Below, one piece after another: positions 7,160-62,035 of a stretch of DNA of 64,000 bases. Location of the stretch: NCBI GenBank assembly GCA_041674885.1, contig JBAYUZ010000001.1:37804-101803 (forward strand). The letters run 5' to 3'. This DNA is from Dehalococcoidia bacterium. GTDB taxonomy: Bacteria; Chloroflexota; Dehalococcoidia; UBA2979. The notes under the pieces were generated by a model. The model was given only the letters and a program-made list of their open reading frames with translations. It was not told the DNA's origin and ran no database searches. Within the stretch, counting starts at the first letter, position 1. Each line of letters starts with the position of its first letter. Both the position numbers and the translations under genes were made by a program.

Positions 7160-7782
7160 AGCGCCGCGCGCGCCGCCGCCACCTCGTCGCGTACCCATGC
7201 CGCCAATGCACGACGATCGTCCGCGTCCTGGATGTTGGTCACCAGGAACGGCGCGTCCCCACGGTTCGCCGCAGCGTCGCGGCGCATCACATCGAGGTCC
7301 GCACCGACGTATGGCGCGAGATCGCGCTTGTTGATCACGAGCAGATCGGACTCGCACACGCCAGGGCCGCCCTTGCGCGGGATCTTGTCCCCGCCCGACA
7401 CGTCGATGACGTAGACGATGCGATCGACCAGCTCACGGCTGAACGTCGCGGACAGGTTGTCGCCGCCACTCTCGATGAGCACCAGCTCCAGCCCCGGGTA
7501 GCGCTCGCCGAGCTGATCCATCGCGCGCAGGTTGAGCGAGGTGTCCTCGCGGATCGCAGAGTGTGGGCACCCGCCCGTCGCGACGCCGATGATGCGCTCG
7601 TCCTCCAACGCCGACTGGCGGCGCAGGAACAGCGCGTCCTCCTCGGTGTAGATGTCGTTCGTGACGACCGCGAGGTTCATCGAGTCGCGCAGCTCCTGGC
7701 ACAGCGCCAGCACGCACGCCGTCTTCCCCGATCCCACCGGCCCCGCGATGCCGATGCGAAACACACCGTTGCCATCGATCAC
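7156..7782 (-). CDS. ureG: Urease accessory GTPase UreG
   Basis: Strong UreG/HypB-family match (GPVGSGKT P-loop, ESGGDNL motif). GTG start at 7782 with AAGGAGG 8 nt upstream. Confidence 0.9.
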
Positions 7783-12141: not shown

Positions 12142-13453
12142 GCGCGCCGGCTCCCCTCGACGCTCGCCGGAAGGAGCCAGCCGCGAGCACCACCGTGACG
12201 GCGAGCCCCGCCGTGAACAGCAGCAGCGCCGCCGTCGGCCCCTGCACCGTCCACAGCACCCCGAACGCCACCGACGAGGCAAGCCGGGCGACCGCCGTGA
12301 CCGTGCCGAGGATCGACAGCCCGCTCGCGCGCTGCGCATCGGGGAGCGTCGCGCTCGCCGCTGCGGCCAGCACGCCGTCCGTGCTCGCGTAGAACGCGCC
12401 GAACAGCAGCAGCGTCAGCGCCACGGTGACGCCCGGCGTGGCGGCCAGCATCGATGGCGCCAGCAGCAGCACGCCGTACACCGCCAGCAGCACCATCTGC
12501 CCGCCCAGGAACGTGGGCACGCGCCCGATACGATCCGCAACACGCCCCAGCGGGATCGCGAGCAGGAAGTACGCGATCGACGTCCCCAGGAACAGCAGCG
12601 GGAAGTACGCCATCCCCACGTCCGTCGTGCGCTGCAGCACCAGGTAGACGAACGCATCGCTCAGCGTGAAGAACGCGACCATCCCGCCCGCGACGACCAC
12701 AGCGCGGAAGCCGCCCGCCTCGCGGAGCACGCGAAGGCTCTCCGCGAACGTCGGACGCCGCTTCGCAGCCGCGGGCTGCTGCGGGTTGCGCACGAACAGC
12801 GCGATGATCGCAACGCCGATCACCGCGAACGAGAGGCTCAGCACGAACACCGCATCGAACCGTCGAGGCGCGAGCGCCAGCACGGCGAACGCGAGGATCG
12901 GGCCCAGCATCGCGCCGACCGTATCGAGCGCACGGTGCAGGCCGAACGCCGCCCCCAGCGACTCATCTGATGCGGCGCGCGAGATGAGCGCGTCCCGGGG
13001 CGCCGTGCGGATGCCCTTCCCGAAGCGATCGACCGCGACCAACGCCATGAACGCGGTCGCGCCGGGCGTCAGGATCATCCCCAGTCGCGTGAGCATCGAC
13101 AGCGCGTACCCCGCGGCCGCGACCTCCTTCTGGCGATCGAGCCGATCCGCCAGGAACCCCGCCACCAGCCGGAACAACGCCGAGGCGCCCTGGTACAGCC
13201 CGTCGATGATCCCGAACTGCACCACGCTCGCCTGCTGCTGGAAGAGCAGGTAGATCGGCAGCACCGCCGTCACCATCTCAGACGAGACATCGGTGAACAT
13301 GCTCGTGAGGCCGAGCAGCAGCACGGTCGAACCGACGCGACCGTCACGCTTCCCGCCACGACCGAGCGTGATCCCGGCCAACCCCTCGCGGATCAGTCCG
13401 TACAACGGTTCCCCACCTCGAACGCGGCGCGCTCGGAGGATACCCCGGGCCAT
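12131..13453 (-). CDS. MFS transporter
   Basis: 12-TM major-facilitator-like hydrophobic pattern. Substrate unknown. Confidence 0.7.
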   Translation of the reverse strand: MARGILRARRVRGGEPLYGLIREGLAGITLGRGGKRDGRVGSTVLLLGLTSMFTDVSSEMVTAVLPIYLLFQQQASVVQFGIIDGLYQGASALFRLVAGFLADRLDRQKEVAAAGYALSMLTRLGMILTPGATAFMALVAVDRFGKGIRTAPRDALISRAASDESLGAAFGLHRALDTVGAMLGPILAFAVLALAPRRFDAVFVLSLSFAVIGVAIIALFVRNPQQPAAAKRRPTFAESLRVLREAGGFRAVVVAGGMVAFFTLSDAFVYLVLQRTTDVGMAYFPLLFLGTSIAYFLLAIPLGRVADRIGRVPTFLGGQMVLLAVYGVLLLAPSMLAATPGVTVALTLLLFGAFYASTDGVLAAAASATLPDAQRASGLSILGTVTAVARLASSVAFGVLWTVQGPTAALLLFTAGLAVTVVLAAGSFRRASRGAGAHAA

Positions 13454-14890: not shown

Positions 14891-15151
14891 ATGGGCATCA
14901 TCGCGTGGGTCGTGCTGGGTCTGATCGCCGGTGCGCTGGCGAAGGCGCTCATGCCGGGGCGTGACCCCGGCGGCATCGTCGCCACGATCCTGATCGGGAT
15001 CGCCGGCGCCCTGATCGGCGGGTTCATCTGGAACCTGCTGAGCGGCGCCGAGGGCTACGGCAACCTGGATGTCGGCGGCATCCTCATCGCCGTGCTTGGC
15101 GCCATGCTGCTGCTCTGGGCGTACCGGACGTACGCCGTCAACCGCGCGTAG
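14891..15151 (+). CDS. GlsB/YeaQ/YmgE family (transglycosylase-associated) small membrane protein
   Basis: 86-aa, Gly-rich, two-TM protein (MGIIAWVVLGLIAGALAKALMPG...) typical of this family. GGAGG RBS. Confidence 0.8.
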   Translation: MGIIAWVVLGLIAGALAKALMPGRDPGGIVATILIGIAGALIGGFIWNLLSGAEGYGNLDVGGILIAVLGAMLLLWAYRTYAVNRA

Positions 15152-15262: not shown

Positions 15263-16399
15263 ATGGGCCGAGGGGCTTCGCTGGCTGCGGTCGCCGCGCT
15301 GGCGCTCGGCGTGCTGCTCCACCCCGCCGCGCCCGCCGAGGCGGCCGCCTCACTCAACCTCCCGACCGAGACGGGGAGCGAGTGGCGGGTGCTGGCCGGC
15401 TACAACACCGCCACCCACTCCGTCGCCGACGCGAACGATCCCTATGCGCTCGACCTCGTGCGCAGCGACGCCTCGACCGCCGGCTCGATCGTCTACGCCC
15501 CGTTTAGCGGCACCGTGCAGTACGCCGACACGAAGTGCGTCGGCGTCCGCGACGCCCAGGGTGTGAGCGTGCTGCTCTGCCACCCCTACCCCGACGCGAA
15601 CCTCCGAGGTCGCGCGATCGCGCGCGGCCAGCGCCTCGGCGTGGTCGCCCCCGATGGCGAGGCCGGGAACAACGGCGCCGCACACATCCACATCGCGCTC
15701 ACCGCACCGAATCGAGGCGGCCCGCTCCCCTTCAGCGGTCGCTTCGCCCTCGAGGGTGTCGACCTGCCGCCGACCGCCGAGCCGGGCGCCTACACCGACG
15801 TCGCGTTCCGCTCCTCGCTGCGTCGCGCCCCCAGCGTCGACGCCGGCGTCGACAGGACCGTGCGCCTGCGCGACGGCGTCACGCTCACGGGCCTCGTCGA
15901 CAACCCGGAGCAGAGCGCCGTCACGCTCACCTGGGCGCAGACGTCCGGCGCCGCCGTCGTGCTCACCGGCGCGAGCACAGCCAGCGCGCAGTTCACCGCG
16001 CCCGCCACCACCTCGACGCTCGCCTTCCGCTTCACCGTCACCGAGCTCGCGACCGGCGAGCAGTTCTCCGACACGCTCACCGTCCGTGTCTCCTCGACCG
16101 CGCCGATCGCCTCCACGCCGCCACCAACCGCGACGAGCGGCGGCAGCGGACGGCTGCTCTCCGGCAGCGTCCCCGCGAGCGGCGGCTTCGGCCTCTTCGT
16201 CTTCGCGGGCGGGACGAACGAGGAGATGCTCGCCGCCACCGGCTGCCCGGGCACGTCCGCCGCCTACTGGGCACTCACGAACGGCGCGTTCACCGTCTTC
16301 ATCCCCGGCACGCGCATCGCTGCCGTGAACGCGGAGTGGTCGAGGCTGTTCGCATCCGGGATCCCCGCCGGCACCGTCCTCCTCGGCCGCTGCCGGTAG
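15263..16399 (+). CDS. Secreted M23-family metallopeptidase with a central Ig-like domain and a conserved C-terminal domain of unknown function
   Basis: Signal peptide. HxxxD (ATHSVAD) and HxH (AAHIHIAL) M23 motifs. Ser/Thr/Pro-rich linker. The C-terminal ~80 aa is homologous to the C-terminus of the protein at 56650..57795. Confidence 0.7.
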   Translation: MGRGASLAAVAALALGVLLHPAAPAEAAASLNLPTETGSEWRVLAGYNTATHSVADANDPYALDLVRSDASTAGSIVYAPFSGTVQYADTKCVGVRDAQGVSVLLCHPYPDANLRGRAIARGQRLGVVAPDGEAGNNGAAHIHIALTAPNRGGPLPFSGRFALEGVDLPPTAEPGAYTDVAFRSSLRRAPSVDAGVDRTVRLRDGVTLTGLVDNPEQSAVTLTWAQTSGAAVVLTGASTASAQFTAPATTSTLAFRFTVTELATGEQFSDTLTVRVSSTAPIASTPPPTATSGGSGRLLSGSVPASGGFGLFVFAGGTNEEMLAATGCPGTSAAYWALTNGAFTVFIPGTRIAAVNAEWSRLFASGIPAGTVLLGRCR

Positions 16400-17847: not shown

Positions 17848-18285
17848 GTGCCGCACAACCAGTCGAGAGTCACCGAAGCGCTCCGCGCCAGCGGGCGCCG
17901 CCTCACCACGCAGCGCGCGCAGGTGCTGGCCGCGCTGCACGACCTGCCCGGCCACAGCACCGTCGATCAGATCCACGCCCGCGTCCGCGACTGCGGCGGC
18001 AACGAGGTCGCGCTGTCGACCGTCTACCGCAACCTCGACGCGCTCGTCGCGATGGGGCTGGTCGCCGCCTTCACCGGCGCCTCCGGCGGCACCACCTACG
18101 AGTGGACCGCCGAGGCCCATCACCACCTGCTCTGCGACGGCTGCGGCCACACGCAGGAGGTCGCCCTGCACGCCCTCGATGCCCTCGCCCGCGAGGTGCA
18201 GCGCGACCACGGCTTCGTCGCCGACATGCGGCACCTGGCGATCCACGGCCGCTGCGCCGGCTGCCGCGACTCGGAGGAACGCTGA
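17848..18285 (+). CDS. Fur-family metalloregulator, probably the nickel-responsive Nur type
   Basis: Fur-family fold with an HHH...CxxC metal site. GTG start with GAGGG 8 nt upstream. Immediately upstream of, and overlapping, a CbiM/NikM ECF transporter and near urease, hence the nickel suggestion. Confidence 0.8.
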   Translation: MPHNQSRVTEALRASGRRLTTQRAQVLAALHDLPGHSTVDQIHARVRDCGGNEVALSTVYRNLDALVAMGLVAAFTGASGGTTYEWTAEAHHHLLCDGCGHTQEVALHALDALAREVQRDHGFVADMRHLAIHGRCAGCRDSEER

Positions 18286-53504: not shown

Positions 53505-53867
53505 ATGCCCGAGCCAGTCGTCCACGTCGCCGGCCCCACGTTGGAGCGATTCGAGGAGGTGCTGACGCCGGAAGCGCTGCGGTTCCTGGGGCTGCTGGAG
53601 TCGACGTTCGGGGCGCGGCGGCGGGAGCTGCTGGCGGCGCGCGCGGTGCGGCAGGCCGCGATCTCGGCGGGCGCAAACCTCGACTTCCTGCCGGAGACGG
53701 CGGCGGTGCGCGCGGGTGACTGGAAGGTCGTGCCGCCCGCGCCGGGGCTCGAGGATCGGCGCGTCGAGATCACGGGGCCGACCGAGCAGCGGATGACGAT
53801 CAACGCGCTCAACTCCGGCGCGCGCGTCTGGCTCGCGGACTTCGAGGATGCGAACGCGCCGTTCTGA
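53505..53867 (+). CDS. aceB: Malate synthase A, N-terminal 120 aa, ending at an in-frame TGA that sits where the family's conserved Trp should be
   Basis: Collinear with the E. coli AceB N-terminus (DRRVEITGP...ADFED). The stop aligns with the W of the family's conserved PDW. Confidence 0.6.
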   Translation: MPEPVVHVAGPTLERFEEVLTPEALRFLGLLESTFGARRRELLAARAVRQAAISAGANLDFLPETAAVRAGDWKVVPPAPGLEDRRVEITGPTEQRMTINALNSGARVWLADFEDANAPF

Positions 53868-53873
53868 GAGAAC

Positions 53874-55082
53874 ATGGTGCGCGGCCACCTGCACCTCATG
53901 GACGCCCTCGACCGCACGATCGACTTCACGACGGCCGAGGGTCGCGCCTACGCGCTGCGGCCGGACGCGGAGCTCGCGACGATCGTCGTGCGGCCTCGCG
54001 GGTGGCACCTCGTGGAGAAGCACCTGCTGGTGGACGGCGCGCCGATATCGGCCTCGCTGTTCGACTTCGCGCTGTACTTCCTCCACTGCGCGCAGCGGCA
54101 GATCGCGAAGGGCAAGGGGCCGTACTTCTACCTGCCGAAGATGGAGAGCCACCTCGAAGCCCGGCTCTGGAACGACGTGTTCAACCTCGCGCAGGACACG
54201 CTCGGCATCCCGCGCGGCACGATCCGCGCGACCGTGCTGATCGAGACGTACCCGGCAGCGTTCGAGATGGAGGAGATCCTCTACGAGCTGCGGGAGCACA
54301 GCGCGGGCCTCAATGCCGGGCGGTGGGACTTCATCTTCAGCCTGATCAAGAAGCTGCGGACGCGCGGGCGCGACTTCGTGCTGCCGGATCGGAACACGGT
54401 GACGATGACGGTGCCGTTCATGCGCGCGTACACGGAGCTGCTGGTCGCGACCTGCCACAAGCGCGGCGCACACGCGATCGGCGGGATGTCGGCGTTCATC
54501 CCGAACCGTCGCGACCCGGAGGTGAACGACGCGGCGCTGGAGCGCGTGCGCGCCGACAAGCGGCGCGAGGCAGGCGATGGCTTCGACGGATCGTGGGTGG
54601 CGCACCCCGACCTCGTCTCGATCTGCTTCGAGGAGTTCGACGCGGTGCTGGGGGCGCGGCCCAACCAGCTCGACCGGCTGCGCGACGACGTGCGCATCAC
54701 GGCGGCGGACATCCTCTCGGTCGCCGCGACACCGGGCGCGGTCACCGAGGCGGGCGTGCGCAACGACGTCTCGGTCGGGGTGCAGTACCTGCAGGCGTGG
54801 CTCGGCGGGCTGGGCGCGGTGGCGATCTTCAACCTCATGGAGGACGCCGCGACGGCCGAGATCGCGCGGTCGCAGGTGTGGCAGTGGATCCACAACGGCG
54901 TGACGCTGGAGGACGGCACGGCGATCACCGCCGACCTCGTCCGCCGCATGCTGGACGAGGAGATCGCGAAGCTGGGCGACGCCGCGACGTACGCCGACGC
55001 GCGGCGGCTGTTCGAGCAGGTGGCGCTGGCGGACGACTTCGAGGAGTTCTTAACGATTCCCGCGTACGATCACATCCCGTAG
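53874..55082 (+). CDS. aceB: Malate synthase A, remaining ~400 aa. Same reading frame as 53505..53867
   Basis: Collinear with E. coli AceB from about residue 125 to the end, including catalytic regions. The first in-frame ATG is at 53874. Confidence 0.75.
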
Positions 55083-55122: not shown

Positions 55123-56517
55123 TTGAGCACGGACAGCGCCCCCAACGCCTCGACGGTGTGCCCCTACTGCGGCCACGCCGTGGCCTCGACTGCGAAGATC
55201 TGCGGGACGTGCCTGCGATCGATCGAGGGTGGGCAGGCAGACCGCGGCGGCCTGGCGGCACGCGAGGTGGCGTACCGCGCAGGGCAGCGACGACGGCGCA
55301 TCCGCCTCGCGTCGATCGCGGCGGGGAGCGTGGCGCTGGTCGCGGCGTTCATCTGGGTGCAGTGGTTCATGCCGGTGACCCCGCTCCCGCTGCCCTCCAC
55401 GCCCGCGCGGACGCTGGTGCCCCCGACCGAGGACGCGAGCCGCTGGCCATCCGTCGCGGGGAACGCGCAGCTGCAGCGCACGACCTCGGCACGTCCCGAC
55501 CTTGCGGCGCCAGAGCGCTGGCGCGTCACCACCAGCGAGCGGATCACCACGCCGCCGGTCGTTGATGAGCAGCGCGTGTACCTCGGCATCGCGGGCGCGC
55601 TCCTGGCGTTCGCGCGCGAGGACGGGCGCGAGGTGTGGCGCATTCCGATCGGTGGGCAACTGGACGCCGCGCCGACGGTCGTGGGCGACCGGGTGTACGT
55701 GACGCTGCGCGAAGGCAGCGTGCTGGCGCTCAACGCGGCGGACGGGAAGCAGCTGTGGAAGGGCGGCGACGGGCCGACCTACTTCTCCTCGGTCGTCGTC
55801 GACCGCGGCGTGGTGTTCGGGTCGGCGCTGGGGCGGCTGACCGGGCTGGACGCGGAGACCGGCACGGTGCTGTGGCGGCAGGACACCGACAACCGGGTGA
55901 GCGCGCAGGCGCAGCCAGCGGTGACACCGGCGCACGTGCTGCAGCTCTCCTACCGGCGCGCGCTCCTGTTCGACCGCGCCACCGGTGAGCAGCTGTTCTA
56001 CTACTCGATGCCGAGCCCGGAGCACGTGGCGGTCGAGGGCAGCCGGGGGTTCATCGTCGGTTCTGATCGCATCGTGGCGTTCGGCTTCGACCAGCGGCGG
56101 CCGTGGTGGGAGTTCTGGCGCACGGCGTGGGGGCAGTTGTGGATCTTCGGCATGGCGCCGGCGCCGCCACCGCAGCCTCGGCACTGGGTGCAGCCGACGG
56201 AGCGCGGAACGCTCGCGCCGACGATCGCCGACGGGGCGCTGATCACGGCGAGCACGACCGGCGGTGTGCGCGCGCTCGACCTCGCGAGCGGCGAGGTGCG
56301 GTGGGAGGCGAAGGTCGGCCCGGTCGCCTCGGCGCCGGTCACGACCGCGGCGGGTGTGCTGCTGGTGCAGCGCGACGCCCTGCTGCTGCTCGACCCGGCG
56401 ACCGGCACCGAGGTCGCGAAGCGGCCGATGCGTGACGCGGGGCTGCGCTCGGCAGCCGTGACCTCGGCGGGGACGTACCTGGTGGCGGGCGACTCCGGGC
56501 TGATCGCGCTGCGCTAG
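55123..56517 (+). CDS. Zinc-ribbon / TM / PQQ-like beta-propeller repeat protein (BamB-like)
   Basis: TTG start with GAGAGGA 7 nt upstream. N-terminal CPYCGH...CGTC zinc ribbon, one TM helix, then PQQ-type repeats. Confidence 0.65.
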   Translation: MSTDSAPNASTVCPYCGHAVASTAKICGTCLRSIEGGQADRGGLAAREVAYRAGQRRRRIRLASIAAGSVALVAAFIWVQWFMPVTPLPLPSTPARTLVPPTEDASRWPSVAGNAQLQRTTSARPDLAAPERWRVTTSERITTPPVVDEQRVYLGIAGALLAFAREDGREVWRIPIGGQLDAAPTVVGDRVYVTLREGSVLALNAADGKQLWKGGDGPTYFSSVVVDRGVVFGSALGRLTGLDAETGTVLWRQDTDNRVSAQAQPAVTPAHVLQLSYRRALLFDRATGEQLFYYSMPSPEHVAVEGSRGFIVGSDRIVAFGFDQRRPWWEFWRTAWGQLWIFGMAPAPPPQPRHWVQPTERGTLAPTIADGALITASTTGGVRALDLASGEVRWEAKVGPVASAPVTTAAGVLLVQRDALLLLDPATGTEVAKRPMRDAGLRSAAVTSAGTYLVAGDSGLIALR

Positions 56518-56649
56518 CGCGCCGTTGCGCCTCGCAGCCCGTGGCGCAACGTTATGTCGCAATCACGTTCAGGGGTGACGTAGAGCGCGATAACTGTGTA
56601 CGCTGATTCGCGCAGTCGCGCTCTTGGCGGGGTGAGACAGCAGGGACGT

Positions 56650-57795
56650 ATGAGCCTCCGCATGCCTCTCCTCGTTGCCGCCGCCGTGTGCGCGCTGGCG
56701 TTCGGGCTGGTGGTCGCGCCCGCCGGGCGCGCCGATGCCGCCACGACCGTGAACGGCCCCTCCGCCGCCGCCGCCCTCACCAGCACCGCACTCGCCTCGC
56801 TCGGCAAGTTCGAGGGCGAGTGCTTCCCGTTCGTGCAGCGCGTCGTGAAGACGGTGCTGGGCAAGTCGATCGGATCCGACTACCGCCTGGGCTACCTGCA
56901 AGCGGGCGCCGTCGAGGTCACGCTGGCCGCGGCGCAGGCGGGCGACATCATCCAGCTCATCGACGACCGCAACACCTCGCCCAGTGCGGACTATCCGGGC
57001 ATGCACACGGCGCTGGTGATGGAGAACTACGGCGGCGGGAAGTTCCGCGTCGTCGACTCGAACGCGTCGTACGACGGCATGGTGCGGGTGCGCGACTACG
57101 AGCCGCGCACGATCGCGCTGCGCTACCCGTACATCTCGATCCACGCGTACCACCTGATCGACACGCCGGTGCCGGCGGGCGGCATCGTGCCGCCCGGGGC
57201 CTCGAGCGGGAGCGGCGGGACGGCGATCGCGCCGGTGCCGCTGACGCCGGGAGCGCAGGCGGTGGTCGCCGCCGACGGTGACTGCCTGCGCGTGCGCTCG
57301 GTGCCGGCGCTGAGCGGCGCGACGCTCACGTGCATGCCGACGGGCGCCTCGCTCACGATCGCGGGCGGCGCGGCGGAGGCGGACGGCTACAAGTGGCTGC
57401 GCATCTCCGCGCCCAGCGGCACCAGCGGCTGGGCGGTGGAGCAGTACTTGCGCGGTGTGTCCCCGACATCAGGGGGCACGACCGCCTCGACCTCGCCCGG
57501 CGCGGTCGCCGAGGTGGCCCCGCCGGCGGCACCCTCCACGACCGGGAAGATCGTGGGCGGCTCGATCCCGGCCGGCGGCGGCGTGGGGCTGGTCGTGTAC
57601 GGCGGCGGATCCAAGGAAGAGCTGTTCGCCGCGTCCGGCTGCCCGAAGGCAACGGCGGTGTTCTGGGCCTCGCAGGACGGCAAGTTCGTCACGTATATTC
57701 CCGCCGCAACGGTCGCGGTGGTGAACGCCGCGTGGGACAACGTCTTCGAGGAAGGCATCCCGGCCGGCACCGCACTCGTCGGTCGCTGCTCGTAG
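56650..57795 (+). CDS. Secreted CHAP/NlpC-P60-like cysteine hydrolase with an SH3b domain and a conserved C-terminal domain of unknown function
   Basis: Signal peptide. Cys (GECFPFV) and His (GMHTALV) are placed like the CHAP catalytic dyad. An SH3b-like segment follows. The C-terminal ~80 aa is homologous to the C-terminus of the M23 protein at 15263..16399. Confidence 0.65.
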   Translation: MSLRMPLLVAAAVCALAFGLVVAPAGRADAATTVNGPSAAAALTSTALASLGKFEGECFPFVQRVVKTVLGKSIGSDYRLGYLQAGAVEVTLAAAQAGDIIQLIDDRNTSPSADYPGMHTALVMENYGGGKFRVVDSNASYDGMVRVRDYEPRTIALRYPYISIHAYHLIDTPVPAGGIVPPGASSGSGGTAIAPVPLTPGAQAVVAADGDCLRVRSVPALSGATLTCMPTGASLTIAGGAAEADGYKWLRISAPSGTSGWAVEQYLRGVSPTSGGTTASTSPGAVAEVAPPAAPSTTGKIVGGSIPAGGGVGLVVYGGGSKEELFAASGCPKATAVFWASQDGKFVTYIPAATVAVVNAAWDNVFEEGIPAGTALVGRCS

Positions 57796-57830
57796 CGACT
57801 GGAAAGGCTCCATCAATGGCACTCCCCGAC

Positions 57831-58601
57831 TTCGACGTCACCGGACGGCGCGTGCTGATCACGGGCGCGGGGCGCGGCATCGGCCGCGGCATCGCGCTCG
57901 CGATGGCCGAGGCGGGCGCGGACGTGGCGGTCACGAGCCTGGGGGAGACGAACGCCGCGAAGGTCGCCGCCGAGGTGCAGGCGCTGGGACGGCGCGGCTT
58001 CGGGTACGCCGCCGACGGCACCAGCGTCGCGGCGACCGAGGCGATCCGCGATCGTGTGCTGGCCGACCTGGGCGGGCTGGACGTCCTCGTGAACTGCGTG
58101 GGCGACTCGATTCCCGGCGCGGTCGCGCAGGCGCCGAGCGGCGAGGGTCGCGTGATGGCGGAGACCGAGTGGCACCGCGTCGTCGACCTCAACCTGACGC
58201 AGGCGTTCGTCGGCTGTCACGTCTTCGGGCCGACGCTGCTGGCGCAGGGCAGCGGGTGCGCGATCAACATCTCCTCGTTCGCCGCGTTCCGCGCGACGGC
58301 GAACATGTCCGCCTACGCGGCGGCGAAGACCGGCCTCACGCGCTTCACGGAGGCGGTGGCGCTGGAGTGGGCCCCGAGCGTGCGCGTGAACGGGATCGCG
58401 CCCGGCCAGTTCCCCGACCCGGAGCAGCTGACCGAGGAGGAGTGGCGCGCCCGCGAGGAGCACGGCGCCGGGAACATTCCGCTGCGCCGCTTCGGGCGGG
58501 TGCGCGAGGTCGGGCTGATGGCCGTCTACCTCGCCTCGGACGCAGCGAGCTACATCACGGGGCAGACGTTCCAGCTGGACGGCGGACGCGGCATCCGCTG
58601 A
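57831..58601 (+). CDS. SDR-family oxidoreductase
   Basis: TGAGRGIGRGIA cofactor motif and the YxxxK catalytic motif. GGAAAGG RBS. Confidence 0.85.
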   Translation, partial: FDVTGRRVLITGAGRGIGRGIALAMAEAGADVAVTSLGETNAAKVAAEVQALGRRGFGYAADGTSVAATEAIRDRVLADLGGLDVLVNCVGDSIPGAVAQAPSGEGRVMAETEWHRVVDLNLTQAFVGCHVFGPTLLAQGSGCAINISSFAAFRATANMSAYAAAKTGLTRFTEAVALEWAPSVRVNGIAPGQFPDPEQLTEEEWRAREEHGAGNIPLRRFGRVREVGLMAVYLASDAASYITGQTFQLDGGRGIR

Positions 58602-59737: not shown

Positions 59738-62035
59738 GTGCAGGCCACCCTGCCCGCCCGTCGCACGTTCGACCGCTCCGCGCTGGTGTACCAGGCGTGG
59801 TCGCACCTGGTCGCGAGCATGATCGGTGGTGCGTTCGCGCTGCTGGTGCTGGCGGTCGCGATCCTCTCGCGCGGGGTGGACACGCTGCCGGGGCTGCTGC
59901 TGTTCAACCTCGGTGCCGCGGTGTGCGGCGCCGGAGCCTCGTTCCTGTGGGCGTCCGCGATCACGTTCCGCTCCGCGATCCTGCTGGAGGGGCCGGTGTT
60001 CCGGCGCCTGGCGGTGGTGGGCGCGCTGGGACTGGCGGCGAACGAGGCCGCGTTCGCGGCGGTGGCGCTGCTGGTGCGCGCCTCCAGCGATGAGCTGGCG
60101 TACCGCGTGGTGGTCGGATCGGTCGTGGCGGGCATCGCGCAGTTCCTCGTGACGTTCGTGGGGACGCACCTGTGGGCGTACCGGGTGATGCTGCCGGCGC
60201 CGGAGCGGCAGATCCTCGCGGGCACCGACTGGGAGTCGACGACGCCGACCGACGTCGAGCTCATCTCGATCGCCGCGGGCGAGCGGCAGATGACCGGCTT
60301 CTGGCGGATGCGCGGCTGGGCGCTCGCGTACTTCATGACGTGGGCGGCGCTGCTGTCGTACGGCTGGTACGCGACGGTCGTGCTGGGGATGACGAACGGC
60401 GACGGCACGGCGCGCGTGGTGCAGGCGTTCCAGGTGATCTTCAGCCGCGAGCCGCACCTGGCGGCGCTGGGCTTCGTGTGGCCGCCGATCCCGGCGTTCA
60501 CGAACATCCCACTGATCGCGCTACTACGCCCGCTGGGCCTCGCGCCGTTCTCGGCGACCGTGATGGGGACGATGTACGCGGCGGGCGCGGTGGTGATGTT
60601 CGCGAGCGCGCTGCGCGCGCTGGGCGTGAACCGCGTCGTGACGACGCTGCTCGCGATCTCGCTGGCGACGAACCAGTACTTCTATCAGACGGCGGCGGCG
60701 GGCCTGTCCGAGCCGGTGCTCGCGTTCTTCCTGCTCGCCTCGCTGCGGGCGTACGTGGCGTGGCTGCACAACCCGCAGCCGGCGACGGTGATGTACGCGG
60801 GCCTGGCGTGCGCGGGCGGCATGATGTGCCGCTACGAGGCGGGGTTCTGGACGGCCGCGATGGCCGCGGCACTGATGATCACGATGTACCAGGGCATCCC
60901 CGGCCTCGGCTTCCTGCGCACGCCGGGCGCGGGCAACGCGGCGGAGGCGCGGCTGCGCATGACCTCGGCTGGCTGGGCGTTCCTCGCGCCGACGGTGTTC
61001 GCGCTGCTGGTGTGGGTGATTCTCAACCAGCAGATCGCCGGGAGCCCGCTGTACTTCCTCAACGGCCCCGGATCGACGCGGATGTCGCCGGACACGGCGC
61101 GGCTGGCCGGCGAGGACCTGGCGGCGTACTCGCCGCAGGGTCTGCTGGTGTTCCACGCGTACCACTCGATCTCCGGTGTGGTGATCATGTTCTTCGACCG
61201 CGTGGCGTTCTTCTCGCCGCTGCTGCTGGGCGTCTCGGCGCTGCTCATCCCGCTGGCGGCATCGAGGCGGGACTACCGGACACTGGGGCTGTTCGGCGTC
61301 ATCTGGTCGATCACGGCGTTCGCGCTGATCACGGGCTACCTCGGCTCGCTGCCGCCGTACCAGCGGTACTGGTACTGGCTGGGGCCGATGGGGTGCGTGA
61401 TGGCGGCGTGGGGCATCGCGGGCGTGCGCGCCTGGGGGCTCCGTGTCGTGGTGTGGGTGGTGGTGGTGATCCTCGCGTTCTCGCCGAACGTGCGGACGTT
61501 CCGCGCCACGTACGACGAGTTCAACGAGTTCGAGCCGACCGCCGAGGAGCGCCTGCAGAACGCGCTGTTCACGACCCCCGACCTCGGCACGGTCGCCGGG
61601 CGATCCGAGCTCGTGCGCGAGTGGAAGGCGGTTGCCGCCGAGGTGAACCAGATCCCGGCGGACAAGCTGATCCTGCTAGACGTGGCGAACCCGGGCGGGC
61701 CGCTGCTGCTCTACACGCAGCACATCGAGCGGTTCGTCACCTCGACGGACACGCGGTACCTGATGGACGTGCTGCCGGAGCCGTGGCTCCACGCGCACTA
61801 CGTGATCGTCCCGGAGCCGATCTATGACGTGAAGACGCGCTCGACGCTGCTGATGGAGTGGCCGGGGCTCTGGGAGGGCCAGCGGCCGTGGGCGAAGGTG
61901 GTGAAGGAGATCCCCGGCCGCTACAAGTGGCGGATCCTGGAACTCTCCCCCGGCCCGGGCGGCCTGCAGCCTCGGGTGGGCGACGGCAACGGTGCGCCTC
62001 AGTCGCCCGGCTTCGCGTCCTCTGTGAACCCGTAG
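59738..62035 (+). CDS. Large polytopic membrane protein: GtrA-like N-terminal 4-TM module fused to a >500-aa multi-TM region plus a C-terminal soluble domain (possible GT-C-type glycosyltransferase)
   Basis: GTG start with AGGAGG 5 nt upstream. The first ~150 aa look like the GtrA family. Many TM helices follow. Function not assignable from sequence. Confidence 0.55.
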   Translation: MQATLPARRTFDRSALVYQAWSHLVASMIGGAFALLVLAVAILSRGVDTLPGLLLFNLGAAVCGAGASFLWASAITFRSAILLEGPVFRRLAVVGALGLAANEAAFAAVALLVRASSDELAYRVVVGSVVAGIAQFLVTFVGTHLWAYRVMLPAPERQILAGTDWESTTPTDVELISIAAGERQMTGFWRMRGWALAYFMTWAALLSYGWYATVVLGMTNGDGTARVVQAFQVIFSREPHLAALGFVWPPIPAFTNIPLIALLRPLGLAPFSATVMGTMYAAGAVVMFASALRALGVNRVVTTLLAISLATNQYFYQTAAAGLSEPVLAFFLLASLRAYVAWLHNPQPATVMYAGLACAGGMMCRYEAGFWTAAMAAALMITMYQGIPGLGFLRTPGAGNAAEARLRMTSAGWAFLAPTVFALLVWVILNQQIAGSPLYFLNGPGSTRMSPDTARLAGEDLAAYSPQGLLVFHAYHSISGVVIMFFDRVAFFSPLLLGVSALLIPLAASRRDYRTLGLFGVIWSITAFALITGYLGSLPPYQRYWYWLGPMGCVMAAWGIAGVRAWGLRVVVWVVVVILAFSPNVRTFRATYDEFNEFEPTAEERLQNALFTTPDLGTVAGRSELVREWKAVAAEVNQIPADKLILLDVANPGGPLLLYTQHIERFVTSTDTRYLMDVLPEPWLHAHYVIVPEPIYDVKTRSTLLMEWPGLWEGQRPWAKVVKEIPGRYKWRILELSPGPGGLQPRVGDGNGAPQSPGFASSVNP

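What the first reader, a model, noticed from the sequence alone, without database searches (positions are those of the whole stretch)
57546..57792. Second copy of the shared C-terminal domain, on the CHAP + SH3b hydrolase
Same conserved domain as at 16151..16396, here appended after a CHAP-like Cys/His domain and an SH3b-like domain. This protein lies just downstream of a zinc-ribbon/PQQ-propeller membrane protein, which suggests a small envelope-remodelling neighbourhood.
Basis: seen in the sequence. Interest (0 to 1): 0.5.

Follow-up and report, generated by a model that had tools for sequence, protein, structure and literature searches.

The report
Undescribed C-terminal module on secreted Chloroflexota proteins
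Two unrelated secreted cell-wall-cutting enzymes in this Chloroflexota genome fragment end in the same ~85-residue domain, which matches no curated family or solved structure searched here, sits at the tail of many different secreted proteins in Chloroflexota metagenomes, and most likely tethers or targets them to the cell envelope.

Summary
The last 83 residues of the proteins at 56650..57795 (B) and 15263..16399 (A) are 51% identical (BLASTP E 2e-18; residue shuffles reach at most 22%). Nothing else in the two proteins is alike, and the window holds only these two copies.

- **Protein B** is a signal peptide, a CHAP-type Cys/His/Asn domain, an SH3b domain and the shared C-terminal (CT) domain, joined by disordered linkers. 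Its best structural matches are CHAP+SH3b endolysins.
- **Protein A** is a signal peptide, an M23 peptidase domain, a PKD domain and CT.
- **No relatives found.** CT hits nothing in Pfam-A, NCBIfam, PHROGs or PDB sequences. Its confident AF2 model (pLDDT 94.7) has no significant PDB fold neighbour.
- **The family is large.** A profile search finds 1069 protein clusters. In 76% of 144 examined the domain ends within 3 residues of the C-terminus, and 12% carry tandem copies.
- **Partners are extracellular.** They include TIG, PKD, M23, trypsin, M10, SH3, LysM and giant cadherin/fn3 adhesins.
- **A covarying Cys pair** indicates a disulfide.

I read CT as an undescribed, apparently Chloroflexota-restricted envelope-anchoring or targeting module. 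This is inferred, not shown. The "envelope-remodelling neighbourhood" idea is weak, because the PQQ neighbour is kept only in close relatives.

The parts
56650..57795 (+). Gene B: secreted CHAP-like / SH3b / CT-domain protein (381 aa plus stop; the ORF listing GTG start at 56596 is probably too far upstream)
   Evidence: ORF. The identical 381-aa product is called on two public metagenome contigs. 71 homologues, the closest 374-381 aa. AGGGA lies 6 nt upstream of the ATG.
56650..56739 (+). Predicted Sec signal peptide (MSLRMPLLVAAAVCALAFGLVVAPAGRADA | ATT)
   Evidence: Read from the sequence (hydrophobic core plus A-x-A). AF2 shows an N-terminal helix at 6-21 followed by a low-confidence stretch. 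No signal-peptide predictor was run.
56761..57159 (+). CHAP-like papain-fold domain (residues ~38-170; Cys58 at the start of helix 58-70, His119, Asn138)
57247..57459 (+). SH3b-like beta domain (residues ~200-270)
   Evidence: Pfam SH3_3 E 4.6e-5, 24 bits. AF2 strands 203-269. Structural matches to CHAP+SH3b endolysins.
57469..57522 (+). Disordered Ser/Thr/Pro/Ala-rich linker before the CT domain (a similar linker spans residues 176-193)
   Evidence: pLDDT < 50 for residues 274-291 and 176-193.
57523..57792 (+). CT domain, copy 2 (the finding): ~85-90 aa alpha/beta module with order b-b-a-b-b-a-b. Within this 90-residue segment the conserved positions are P16, G20, L23, G28, G29, C40, W48, N68, W71 and C89, which is the penultimate residue of the protein
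15263..16399 (+). Gene A: secreted M23 peptidase / PKD / CT-domain protein (378 aa)
   Evidence: Full-length orthologues at 40-87% identity. H52, D64, H141 and H143 are invariant.
16127..16396 (+). CT domain, copy 1
55123..56517 (+). Upstream neighbour: zinc-ribbon + one TM + PQQ_2/BamB-like beta-propeller protein (context only; no evidence that it belongs functionally)
   Evidence: Pfam PQQ_2 E 1.4e-30 plus weak zinc-ribbon hits. Adjacency is kept, and lost.

Best explanation
Window 57523..57792 encodes a compact, disulfide-stabilised, extracytoplasmic alpha/beta domain of about 85 residues (CT) that is a mobile C-terminal module of secreted Chloroflexota proteins. Here it ends two unrelated peptidoglycan hydrolases, each joined to it by a flexible linker:
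- B: signal peptide, CHAP-type cysteine peptidase/amidase, SH3b, CT.
- A: signal peptide, M23 metallopeptidase, PKD, CT.

The most likely role of CT is non-covalent binding to a component of the producer's own multilayered envelope, such as a wall glycopolymer or a surface-layer component. That would keep exported enzymes and adhesins at the cell surface and, for the two hydrolases, concentrate them on the wall they remodel.

Shown: homology of the two copies, domain boundaries, fold confidence, family size, C-terminal bias, partner domains, and the covarying Cys pair. Inferred: the disulfide, secretion, peptidoglycan-hydrolase activity and, above all, the binding or anchoring function and its ligand.
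For: - **Homology is certain.** E 2e-18 and 51% identity over 83 aa. The profile finds 1069 clusters at E <= 1e-3 and 549 at E <= 1e-10 among 1.84 billion representatives.
- **It is an autonomous folded unit.** The AF2 domain model has pLDDT 94.7 and pTM 0.83. The full-length model gives the same secondary structure, with a disordered linker in front.
- **It is extracytoplasmic.** Both window proteins and the complete giant members begin with signal-peptide-like N-termini. Among 227 unique domain instances, Cys40 and Cys90 are both present in 193, both absent in 29 and single in only 5 (4 of these end before the second Cys column). The 29 that lack them mostly carry a different Cys pair, near positions 10 and 37.
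- **Its architecture looks like an anchoring or targeting module.** In 109 of 144 representatives the domain ends within 3 residues of the C-terminus, typically ...[RK]-C-x. 18 of 144 have 2-3 tandem copies. In LysM-bearing orthologues of B it is internal and LysM repeats follow it.
- **Partner domains are extracellular enzymes and adhesin repeats.** Of 132 proteins: TIG 17, PKD 17, M23 10, trypsin 6, M10 6, SH3_3 6, Big_9 6, LysM 3, cadherin-like 3, beta-lactamase 1.
- **Giant adhesins have no other anchor.** The cadherin/fn3/Calx-beta proteins of 1500-3800 aa show no other TM segment and no LPXTG, and they end in tandem CT.
- **The conserved residues suit a ligand site.** Asn69 is 100% conserved, the Gly28-Gly29 loop before helix 1 is 99% conserved, and two aromatic positions (W or Y, W or F) are kept.
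- **There is a wall context for the B family.** One orthologue is flanked by VanY and a Peptidase_S11 DD-carboxypeptidase.
- **Named members are all Chloroflexota.** Every member that carries an organism name is a Chloroflexota or Dehalococcoidia MAG. That phylum is reported to lack BAM and LPS genes and to have unusual layered envelopes (PMC13319060).
Against: - There is no experimental or structural evidence for any ligand.
- No sequence or fold relationship to any known wall-binding module was found, so the function rests on architecture logic alone.
- B already has an SH3b domain, and some orthologues also have LysM, which would make a further wall-binding domain partly redundant.
- The very strict C-terminal position and conserved [RK]-C-x end would also fit a recognition tag for a processing or sorting system.
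- Taxonomic restriction is not proven. Most family members are unnamed metagenome proteins.
- The AlphaFold-database fold libraries were unavailable.
Confidence: 0.45

Rival explanations
1. CT is a folded C-terminal sorting or secretion tag, analogous in logic to the T9SS C-terminal domain. An unknown Chloroflexota export or attachment machinery would recognise it, and it might be cleaved or covalently processed.
For: 76% of examined members end within 3 residues of the domain, with a conserved [RK]-C-x terminus. The cargo is very diverse: proteases, hydrolases and adhesins. Chloroflexota envelopes are multilayered, so a second translocation or attachment step is conceivable (PMC13319060). A sortase gene sits directly upstream of one B orthologue.
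Against: Tandem copies (18 of 144) and internal copies followed by LysM are atypical for a sorting tag. The terminal Cys covaries with an internal Cys, which points to a structural disulfide and not a processing site. No conserved neighbouring machinery appeared in nine inspected neighbourhoods. The N-terminal Sec signal peptides already account for export.
Confidence: 0.12
2. CT is a substrate-targeting (CBM-like) module. It would bind a foreign polymer, such as other bacteria's walls, EPS or detrital glycans, and direct secreted lytic or digestive enzymes to their substrate instead of tethering them to the producer.
For: It is attached by flexible linkers to lytic and digestive enzymes (CHAP, M23, trypsin, M10), as in lysostaphin-type bacteriolysins and modular glycanases (established knowledge of those families). 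Conserved Asn plus aromatic residues are typical of glycan-binding sites.
Against: Giant adhesin-like proteins have tandem CT as their only candidate attachment to the cell. Small stand-alone signal-peptide + CT proteins also exist. The apparent lineage restriction fits a lineage-specific self ligand better.
Confidence: 0.15
3. CT is a protein-protein docking or oligomerisation module (dockerin-like, or an S-layer or sheath association domain) that assembles secreted proteins onto a proteinaceous surface scaffold.
For: It shows the same architecture pattern as the best explanation. Chloroflexota outer layers may be proteinaceous (PMC13319060).
Against: No cohesin-like partner was identified, and no conserved neighbour was found. 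The tools available here cannot separate this reading from glycan binding.
Confidence: 0.15
4. CT is an autoinhibitory or folding pro-domain of secreted hydrolases, like the PPC (pre-peptidase C-terminal) domains that are removed on activation.
For: It lies C-terminal on several peptidase types (M23, M10, trypsin, CHAP).
Against: It is equally common on non-enzymatic TIG, PKD and cadherin proteins and as a stand-alone domain. The disordered linker and the low pTM (0.46) of the full-length model give no sign of docking onto the catalytic domain.
Confidence: 0.05
5. The similarity is chance or a compositional effect of a 71% G+C genome.
For: None beyond the high G+C content.
Against: E 2e-18 with composition-based statistics. 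Shuffles reach at most 22% identity against 51% observed. There are hundreds of homologues with conserved motifs.
Confidence: 0.01

Closest known systems
CHAP + SH3b peptidoglycan hydrolases and endolysins (PlyPy 5udn, Ly7917 5d74, PlyGRCS 8xyf; Pfam PF05257 + PF08239)
   Same: The first two domains of protein B share their order (an N-terminal papain-fold Cys/His domain followed by SH3b), conserved Cys/His/Asn residues, and significant Foldseek matches.
   Different: B is a chromosomal, Sec-secreted protein and not a phage endolysin. Its sequence falls below the Pfam thresholds. It carries a third, unrelated C-terminal domain that these enzymes lack.
Non-covalent wall-anchoring modules of monoderm bacteria (LysM, SLH, CWB2, GW, SPOR, SH3b)
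   Same: It is a small module on the ends of diverse secreted enzymes and adhesins, often in tandem, joined by flexible linkers, and combined with LysM or SH3b in the same proteins.
T9SS C-terminal domain (CTD) of Bacteroidota
   Same: It is a folded domain of about 80-90 aa at the extreme C-terminus of very diverse secreted cargo.
   Different: It has an alpha/beta fold, not an Ig-like beta-sandwich. It occurs in tandem and internally. It is found in Chloroflexota MAGs. No associated machinery was seen.
LytM/lysostaphin-type M23 peptidases with a C-terminal targeting domain
   Same: Protein A has conserved M23-type His/Asp/His-x-His residues followed by accessory domains, as lysostaphin has M23 + SH3b.
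   Different: The accessory domains are PKD + CT and not SH3b. The Pfam M23 score is below threshold (20.8 against 28.7).
Beta-grasp domains (ThiS/TtuB, PB1, the ubiquitin-like domain of UBA3)
   Different: The scores are below significance and only 50-58 of 90 residues align. No sequence relationship was found. This is a lead only.

Membership tests
CHAP domain (PF05257), N-terminal domain of B | Scores above the Pfam gathering threshold | tested here: not met
   The window protein scores 15.4 bits, E 0.028, against a cut-off of 26, and the full protein gave no hit at E <= 1. However, 18 of 21 family members hit CHAP, best E 2.1e-6, and one relative (P0063) has a precomputed PF05257 hit.
CHAP domain (PF05257), N-terminal domain of B | Conserved catalytic Cys at a helix N-terminus, plus His and a third polar residue | tested here: met
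   Cys58, His119 and Asn138 are invariant in 40 homologues. Cys58 opens helix 58-70 and His119 opens strand 119-128 in the AF2 model.
CHAP domain (PF05257), N-terminal domain of B | Papain-like CHAP fold | tested here: met
   Top Foldseek PDB hits are the CHAP endolysins PlyPy, Ly7917 and PlyGRCS (E 1.3e-6 to 7.5e-5, prob 1.00). The S. aureus amidase CHAP domain and the phi812 CHAP domain also hit.
CHAP domain (PF05257), N-terminal domain of B | Peptidoglycan amidase or endopeptidase activity | not testable with these tools
   Needs zymography or muropeptide analysis.
Bacterial SH3 (SH3_3, PF08239), middle domain of B | Profile match and SH3-like beta barrel | tested here: inconclusive
   24 bits against a cut-off of 27. 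Many orthologues have a precomputed PF08239 hit. The model shows an all-beta domain at 203-269, and the matches are to CHAP+SH3b enzymes.
Peptidase M23 (PF01551), N-terminal domain of A | Profile match and conserved M23 His/Asp and H-x-H metal ligands | tested here: inconclusive
   20.8 bits against a cut-off of 28.7. H52, D64, H141 and H143 are invariant and D59 nearly invariant in 14 orthologues. 10 of 132 CT proteins hit M23, best E 4.5e-10.
Known wall-binding or anchoring domains (LysM, SLH, CWB2, SPOR, GW, PG_binding), for the CT domain | Sequence-profile membership | tested here: not met
   No Pfam hit for A or B in the CT region, and none consistent across 34 CT sequences even at E <= 10. 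No NCBIfam hit. No PHROG hit below E 0.1.
Known wall-binding or anchoring domains (LysM, SLH, CWB2, SPOR, GW, PG_binding), for the CT domain | Shared fold with a solved representative | tested here: not met
T9SS-type C-terminal sorting domain, for the CT domain | Single copy at the extreme C-terminus with a beta-sandwich fold | tested here: not met
   A terminal position is seen in 76%, but tandem copies (18 of 144) and internal copies exist. The fold is alpha/beta.
T9SS-type C-terminal sorting domain, for the CT domain | Co-occurrence with dedicated secretion or sortase machinery | not tested
   Only nine neighbourhoods were inspected and they share no gene.

The most novel reading that the evidence does not exclude
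CT is the recognition domain of an undiscovered Chloroflexota-specific surface-display system. Such a system would be a folded C-terminal tag that is read by, or covalently attached through, a dedicated machinery to the phylum's unusual outer envelope layers. It would be functionally parallel to T9SS-CTD/PorU or to sortase/LPXTG, but built on a new fold.
Probability: 0.12. Interest if true: 0.8.

Novelty: new variant of a known kind. Interest (0 to 1): 0.5.

Why it matters
How Chloroflexota build and decorate their atypical, multilayered envelopes is poorly understood, and no surface-anchoring module specific to the phylum came up in the searches here.

A compact domain sits at the C-terminus of members of a family of at least a thousand protein clusters. 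Its partners include wall hydrolases, proteases and megadalton-scale adhesins. That makes it a concrete handle in three ways:
- It predicts the surface proteome of uncultured Chloroflexota from sequence alone.
- It gives a small, well-folding probe (CT-GFP) with which to find its envelope ligand.
- It is a candidate for a new Pfam family and possibly a new fold.

For the two genes in this window, it changes the annotation from 'hypothetical / SH3 domain protein' to modular, surface-targeted peptidoglycan hydrolases.

Tried and rejected
- **Word-indexed homologue search.** With the 90-aa CT alone it gave 0 hits. With the 34-sequence alignment it gave only 3 hits. The k-mer prefilter fails on this short, diverged domain; the exhaustive profile search was needed.
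- **Single-sequence genome scan.** It gave one locus, a Chloroflexota MAG.
- **Metagenome scan.** The G[VIF]GLIVFGG pattern gave six short contigs with no usable context.
- **AlphaFold-database fold libraries.** They were unavailable, so annotated AFDB neighbours could not be checked.
- **Marginal PDB profile hit.** The hit to Rv3035, a 'BamB-like protein binding protein' (9p3f, E 0.04, 39 residues), was treated as noise from a Gly-rich strand motif, despite the coincidence with the PQQ neighbour.
- **Weak tblastn hits in the window.** Hits at 7374..7469 and 12350..12508 (E 0.007-0.03) were not confirmed by the family HMM.
- **Polymorphic-toxin reading.** It was rejected because here the C-terminus is constant and the N-terminal parts vary, and no immunity-like neighbour recurs.
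- **Neighbourhood survey.** Nine loci encoding CT-bearing proteins share no gene.
- **Promoter and terminator scan.** A scan of 56300..58000 found nothing.
- **Literature.** Four full-text searches found no description of this domain.

Full report
**1. The observation**

The window is 71% G+C. Two + strand ORFs are involved: A at 15263..16399 (378 aa) and B at 56596/56650..57795.

- BLASTP of the two proteins yields a single significant segment, the last 83 residues of each. It has 51% identity, 70% positives, no gaps and E 2e-18. Everything else has E >= 0.23.
- Ungapped identity is 50.6%, against a mean of 8.7% and a maximum of 21.7% in 10,000 shuffles. At DNA level the copies are 62% identical, and 52% at third codon positions. 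This is an old divergence, not a recent duplication.
- tblastn and a six-frame search with the family HMM show that these are the only two copies in the 64 kb.
The whole module is 57523..57792.

**2. The gene that carries copy 2**

Start site and origin:
- The closest homologues (84-97% identity) are 370-381 aa.
- An identical 381-aa product is called on two public metagenome contigs.
- The real start is therefore the ATG at 56650, which has AGGGA 6 nt upstream.

Domain organisation:
- The N-terminus (MSLRMPLLVAAAVCALAFGLVVAPAGRADA|ATT) reads as a Sec signal peptide. This is an inference from the sequence.
- A full-length AF2 model built from 40 homologues (mean pLDDT 81) shows three well-folded domains separated by disordered linkers at residues 176-193 and 274-291.

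Domain 1 (about residues 38-170) is CHAP-like:
- The window sequence itself scores only 15.4 bits against Pfam CHAP, but 18 of 21 family members hit CHAP, best E 2e-6.
- Cys58, His119 and Asn138 are invariant.
- Cys58 opens a helix and His119 opens a strand, as in papain-fold enzymes.
- The model's best PDB matches are the CHAP+SH3b endolysins PlyPy, Ly7917 and PlyGRCS (E 1e-6 to 7.5e-5, prob 1.00).

Domain 2 (about residues 200-270) is SH3b-like. It scores 24 bits against SH3_3, just below the cut-off of 27, and many orthologues carry a PF08239 hit.

One 48%-identical orthologue, which also carries LysM, lies between a VanY gene and a Peptidase_S11 DD-carboxypeptidase gene. That supports a peptidoglycan role for the family.

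**3. The gene that carries copy 1**

Protein A is a signal peptide, an M23-like domain, a K319L-type PKD domain (E 3e-12) and CT.
- The M23 domain scores 20.8 bits, below the Pfam cut-off.
- H52, D64, H141 and H143 are invariant in 14 orthologues.
- The M23-PKD-CT architecture recurs at 40-87% identity in many clusters, and some relatives are M23-CT without PKD.

Two catalytically unrelated wall hydrolases therefore share only the terminal module.

**4. The CT domain itself**

Conservation and fold:
- An alignment of 34 diverse copies has invariant P16, G20, L23, G28, G29, C40, W48, N68, W71 and C89.
- AF2 on this alignment gives a very confident model (pLDDT 94.7, pTM 0.83) with the order b-b-a-b-b-a-b.

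No relatives in the libraries searched:
- It matches nothing in Pfam-A, NCBIfam or PHROGs.
- A PDB sequence profile gives a best E of 0.04.
- Foldseek against PDB gives nothing at E <= 1e-3.

Family size and architecture:
- An exhaustive profile search of 1.84 billion representatives finds 1069 clusters at E <= 1e-3 and 549 at E <= 1e-10.
- Of 144 representatives, 109 end within 3 residues of the domain (typically [RK]-C-x), 18 carry 2-3 tandem copies, and 19 have a tail longer than 20 aa.
- In the LysM-bearing B orthologues the domain is internal and LysM repeats follow it.
- Partner domains among 132 proteins are all extracellular types: TIG 17, PKD 17, M23 10, trypsin 6, matrixin 6, SH3_3 6, Big_9 6, LysM 3, cadherin-like 3 and a beta-lactamase.
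- Giant cadherin/fn3/Calx-beta proteins (1500-3800 aa) have signal peptides, no further TM segment and no LPXTG, and they end in tandem CT.

The cysteine pair and other conserved positions, among 227 unique domain instances:
- Asn69 is 100% conserved and Gly28/Gly29 are 99% conserved.
- The two Cys are both present in 193 instances, both absent in 29 and single in 5 (4 of these end before the second Cys column).
- The 29 that lack them mostly carry a different Cys pair (near positions 10 and 37), and have Y and F in place of the two Trp.
- This covariation is strong indirect evidence for a disulfide, and therefore for an extracytoplasmic location.

Taxonomy: every member that carries an organism name is a Chloroflexota or Dehalococcoidia MAG. 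Most members are unnamed.

**5. Context**

- Upstream of B lies a zinc-ribbon + TM + PQQ/BamB-like propeller protein, 132 bp away.
- The other neighbours are malate synthase, an SDR, an ornithine cyclodeaminase and a 765-aa multi-TM protein with no Pfam hit.
- The PQQ gene is kept next to a 60%-identical orthologue, with a sortase gene inserted between the two. It is not kept next to the 45-48% identical orthologues.
- Copy 1 sits between two transporter-like genes and a small Transgly_assoc protein.
- Nine neighbourhoods of genes for CT-bearing proteins share no gene.
- The 'envelope-remodelling neighbourhood' is therefore not supported. These are scattered single genes.

**6. Mechanism**

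The best-supported reading is that CT is a disulfide-stabilised, extracellular binding module that retains or targets secreted proteins at the Chloroflexota cell envelope. The supporting points are:
- terminal placement on flexible linkers;
- tandem duplication, which would add avidity;
- combination with LysM and SH3b;
- its position as the only candidate anchor on giant adhesins;
- a conserved Asn / aromatic / Gly-loop patch;
- apparent restriction to a phylum reported to lack BAM and LPS genes and to have unusual layered envelopes (PMC13319060).

All of this is inference, and no ligand is known. The rivals are:
- a folded sorting tag (T9SS-CTD logic), favoured by the strict C-terminal end but disfavoured by tandem and internal copies and by the Cys covariation;
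- a CBM-like module aimed at foreign substrates;
- a protein-docking module;
- a pro-domain, which is unlikely because CT also sits on non-enzymes and stands alone.

**7. Comparison and novelty**

B and A are ordinary in their catalytic parts: new members of the CHAP+SH3b and M23 hydrolase kinds. The CT domain works like the known wall-anchoring modules of monoderm bacteria, but it fails every membership test that could be run, for both sequence profiles and fold. It is therefore best described as a new variant of a known kind: an undescribed, large, lineage-associated domain family, possibly with a new fold.

**8. Verdict**

- The neighbourhood inference is not supported.

Interest is moderate at 0.5. 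This is a genuine, sizeable, unannotated domain family with a confident model and a testable role in Chloroflexota surface biology, but its function is inferred and its concept is familiar.

Noticed in passing
window 53505..55082 (+), stop codon at 53865..53867: The malate synthase gene is interrupted by an in-frame TGA exactly where an 82%-identical orthologue (L005) has a conserved Trp (..SPFWENL.. against ..APF*ENM..). The same TGA is present on the independent ENA contig L001. It could be a nonsense mutation (pseudogene), a split gene, or stop-codon read-through or recoding.
   Followed up: partly
window 59738..62035 (+): A 765-aa ORF with many hydrophobic segments, also called as a gene on L001, has no Pfam hit at E <= 0.01. 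It is a large uncharacterised membrane protein two genes downstream of B.
   Followed up: partly
L005 5223..5810: In a 60%-identical syntenic locus, a class-unknown sortase gene (PF04203) is inserted between the PQQ-propeller gene and the B orthologue. There is no such gene in the window (only a 132-bp gap), and B has no LPXTG motif.
   Followed up: partly
window 55123..56517 (+): This protein has an N-terminal zinc ribbon, one TM helix and an extracytoplasmic PQQ_2/BamB-like beta-propeller. That is an unusual topology (cytoplasmic zinc ribbon linked to an outside propeller), and it is conserved next to B only in close relatives.
   Followed up: partly
P0143, P0154, P0158, P0167, P0203, P0212 and others; L007 16616..17116: A distinct CT subfamily occurs as tandem pairs at the end of giant adhesin-like proteins. 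It has swapped the usual Cys40-Cys90 pair for another pair (near positions 10 and 37) and has Tyr/Phe in place of the two Trp. This appears to be a disulfide relocation within one fold.
   Followed up: partly
L016 16211..17586: A ThsA(Macro)-ThsB(TIR) Thoeris-like defence gene pair lies about 5 kb from a CT-protein gene, on a 341-kb contig from the same sample as the contig that matches the window.
   Followed up: no
window 14891..15151 (+) and 17848..18285 (+): A small Transgly_assoc (GlsB/YeaQ-type) membrane protein lies immediately upstream of gene A (Pfam E 1.3e-8). An ORF about 1.4 kb downstream looks like a Fur-type regulator from its sequence, but this was not tested.
   Followed up: partly
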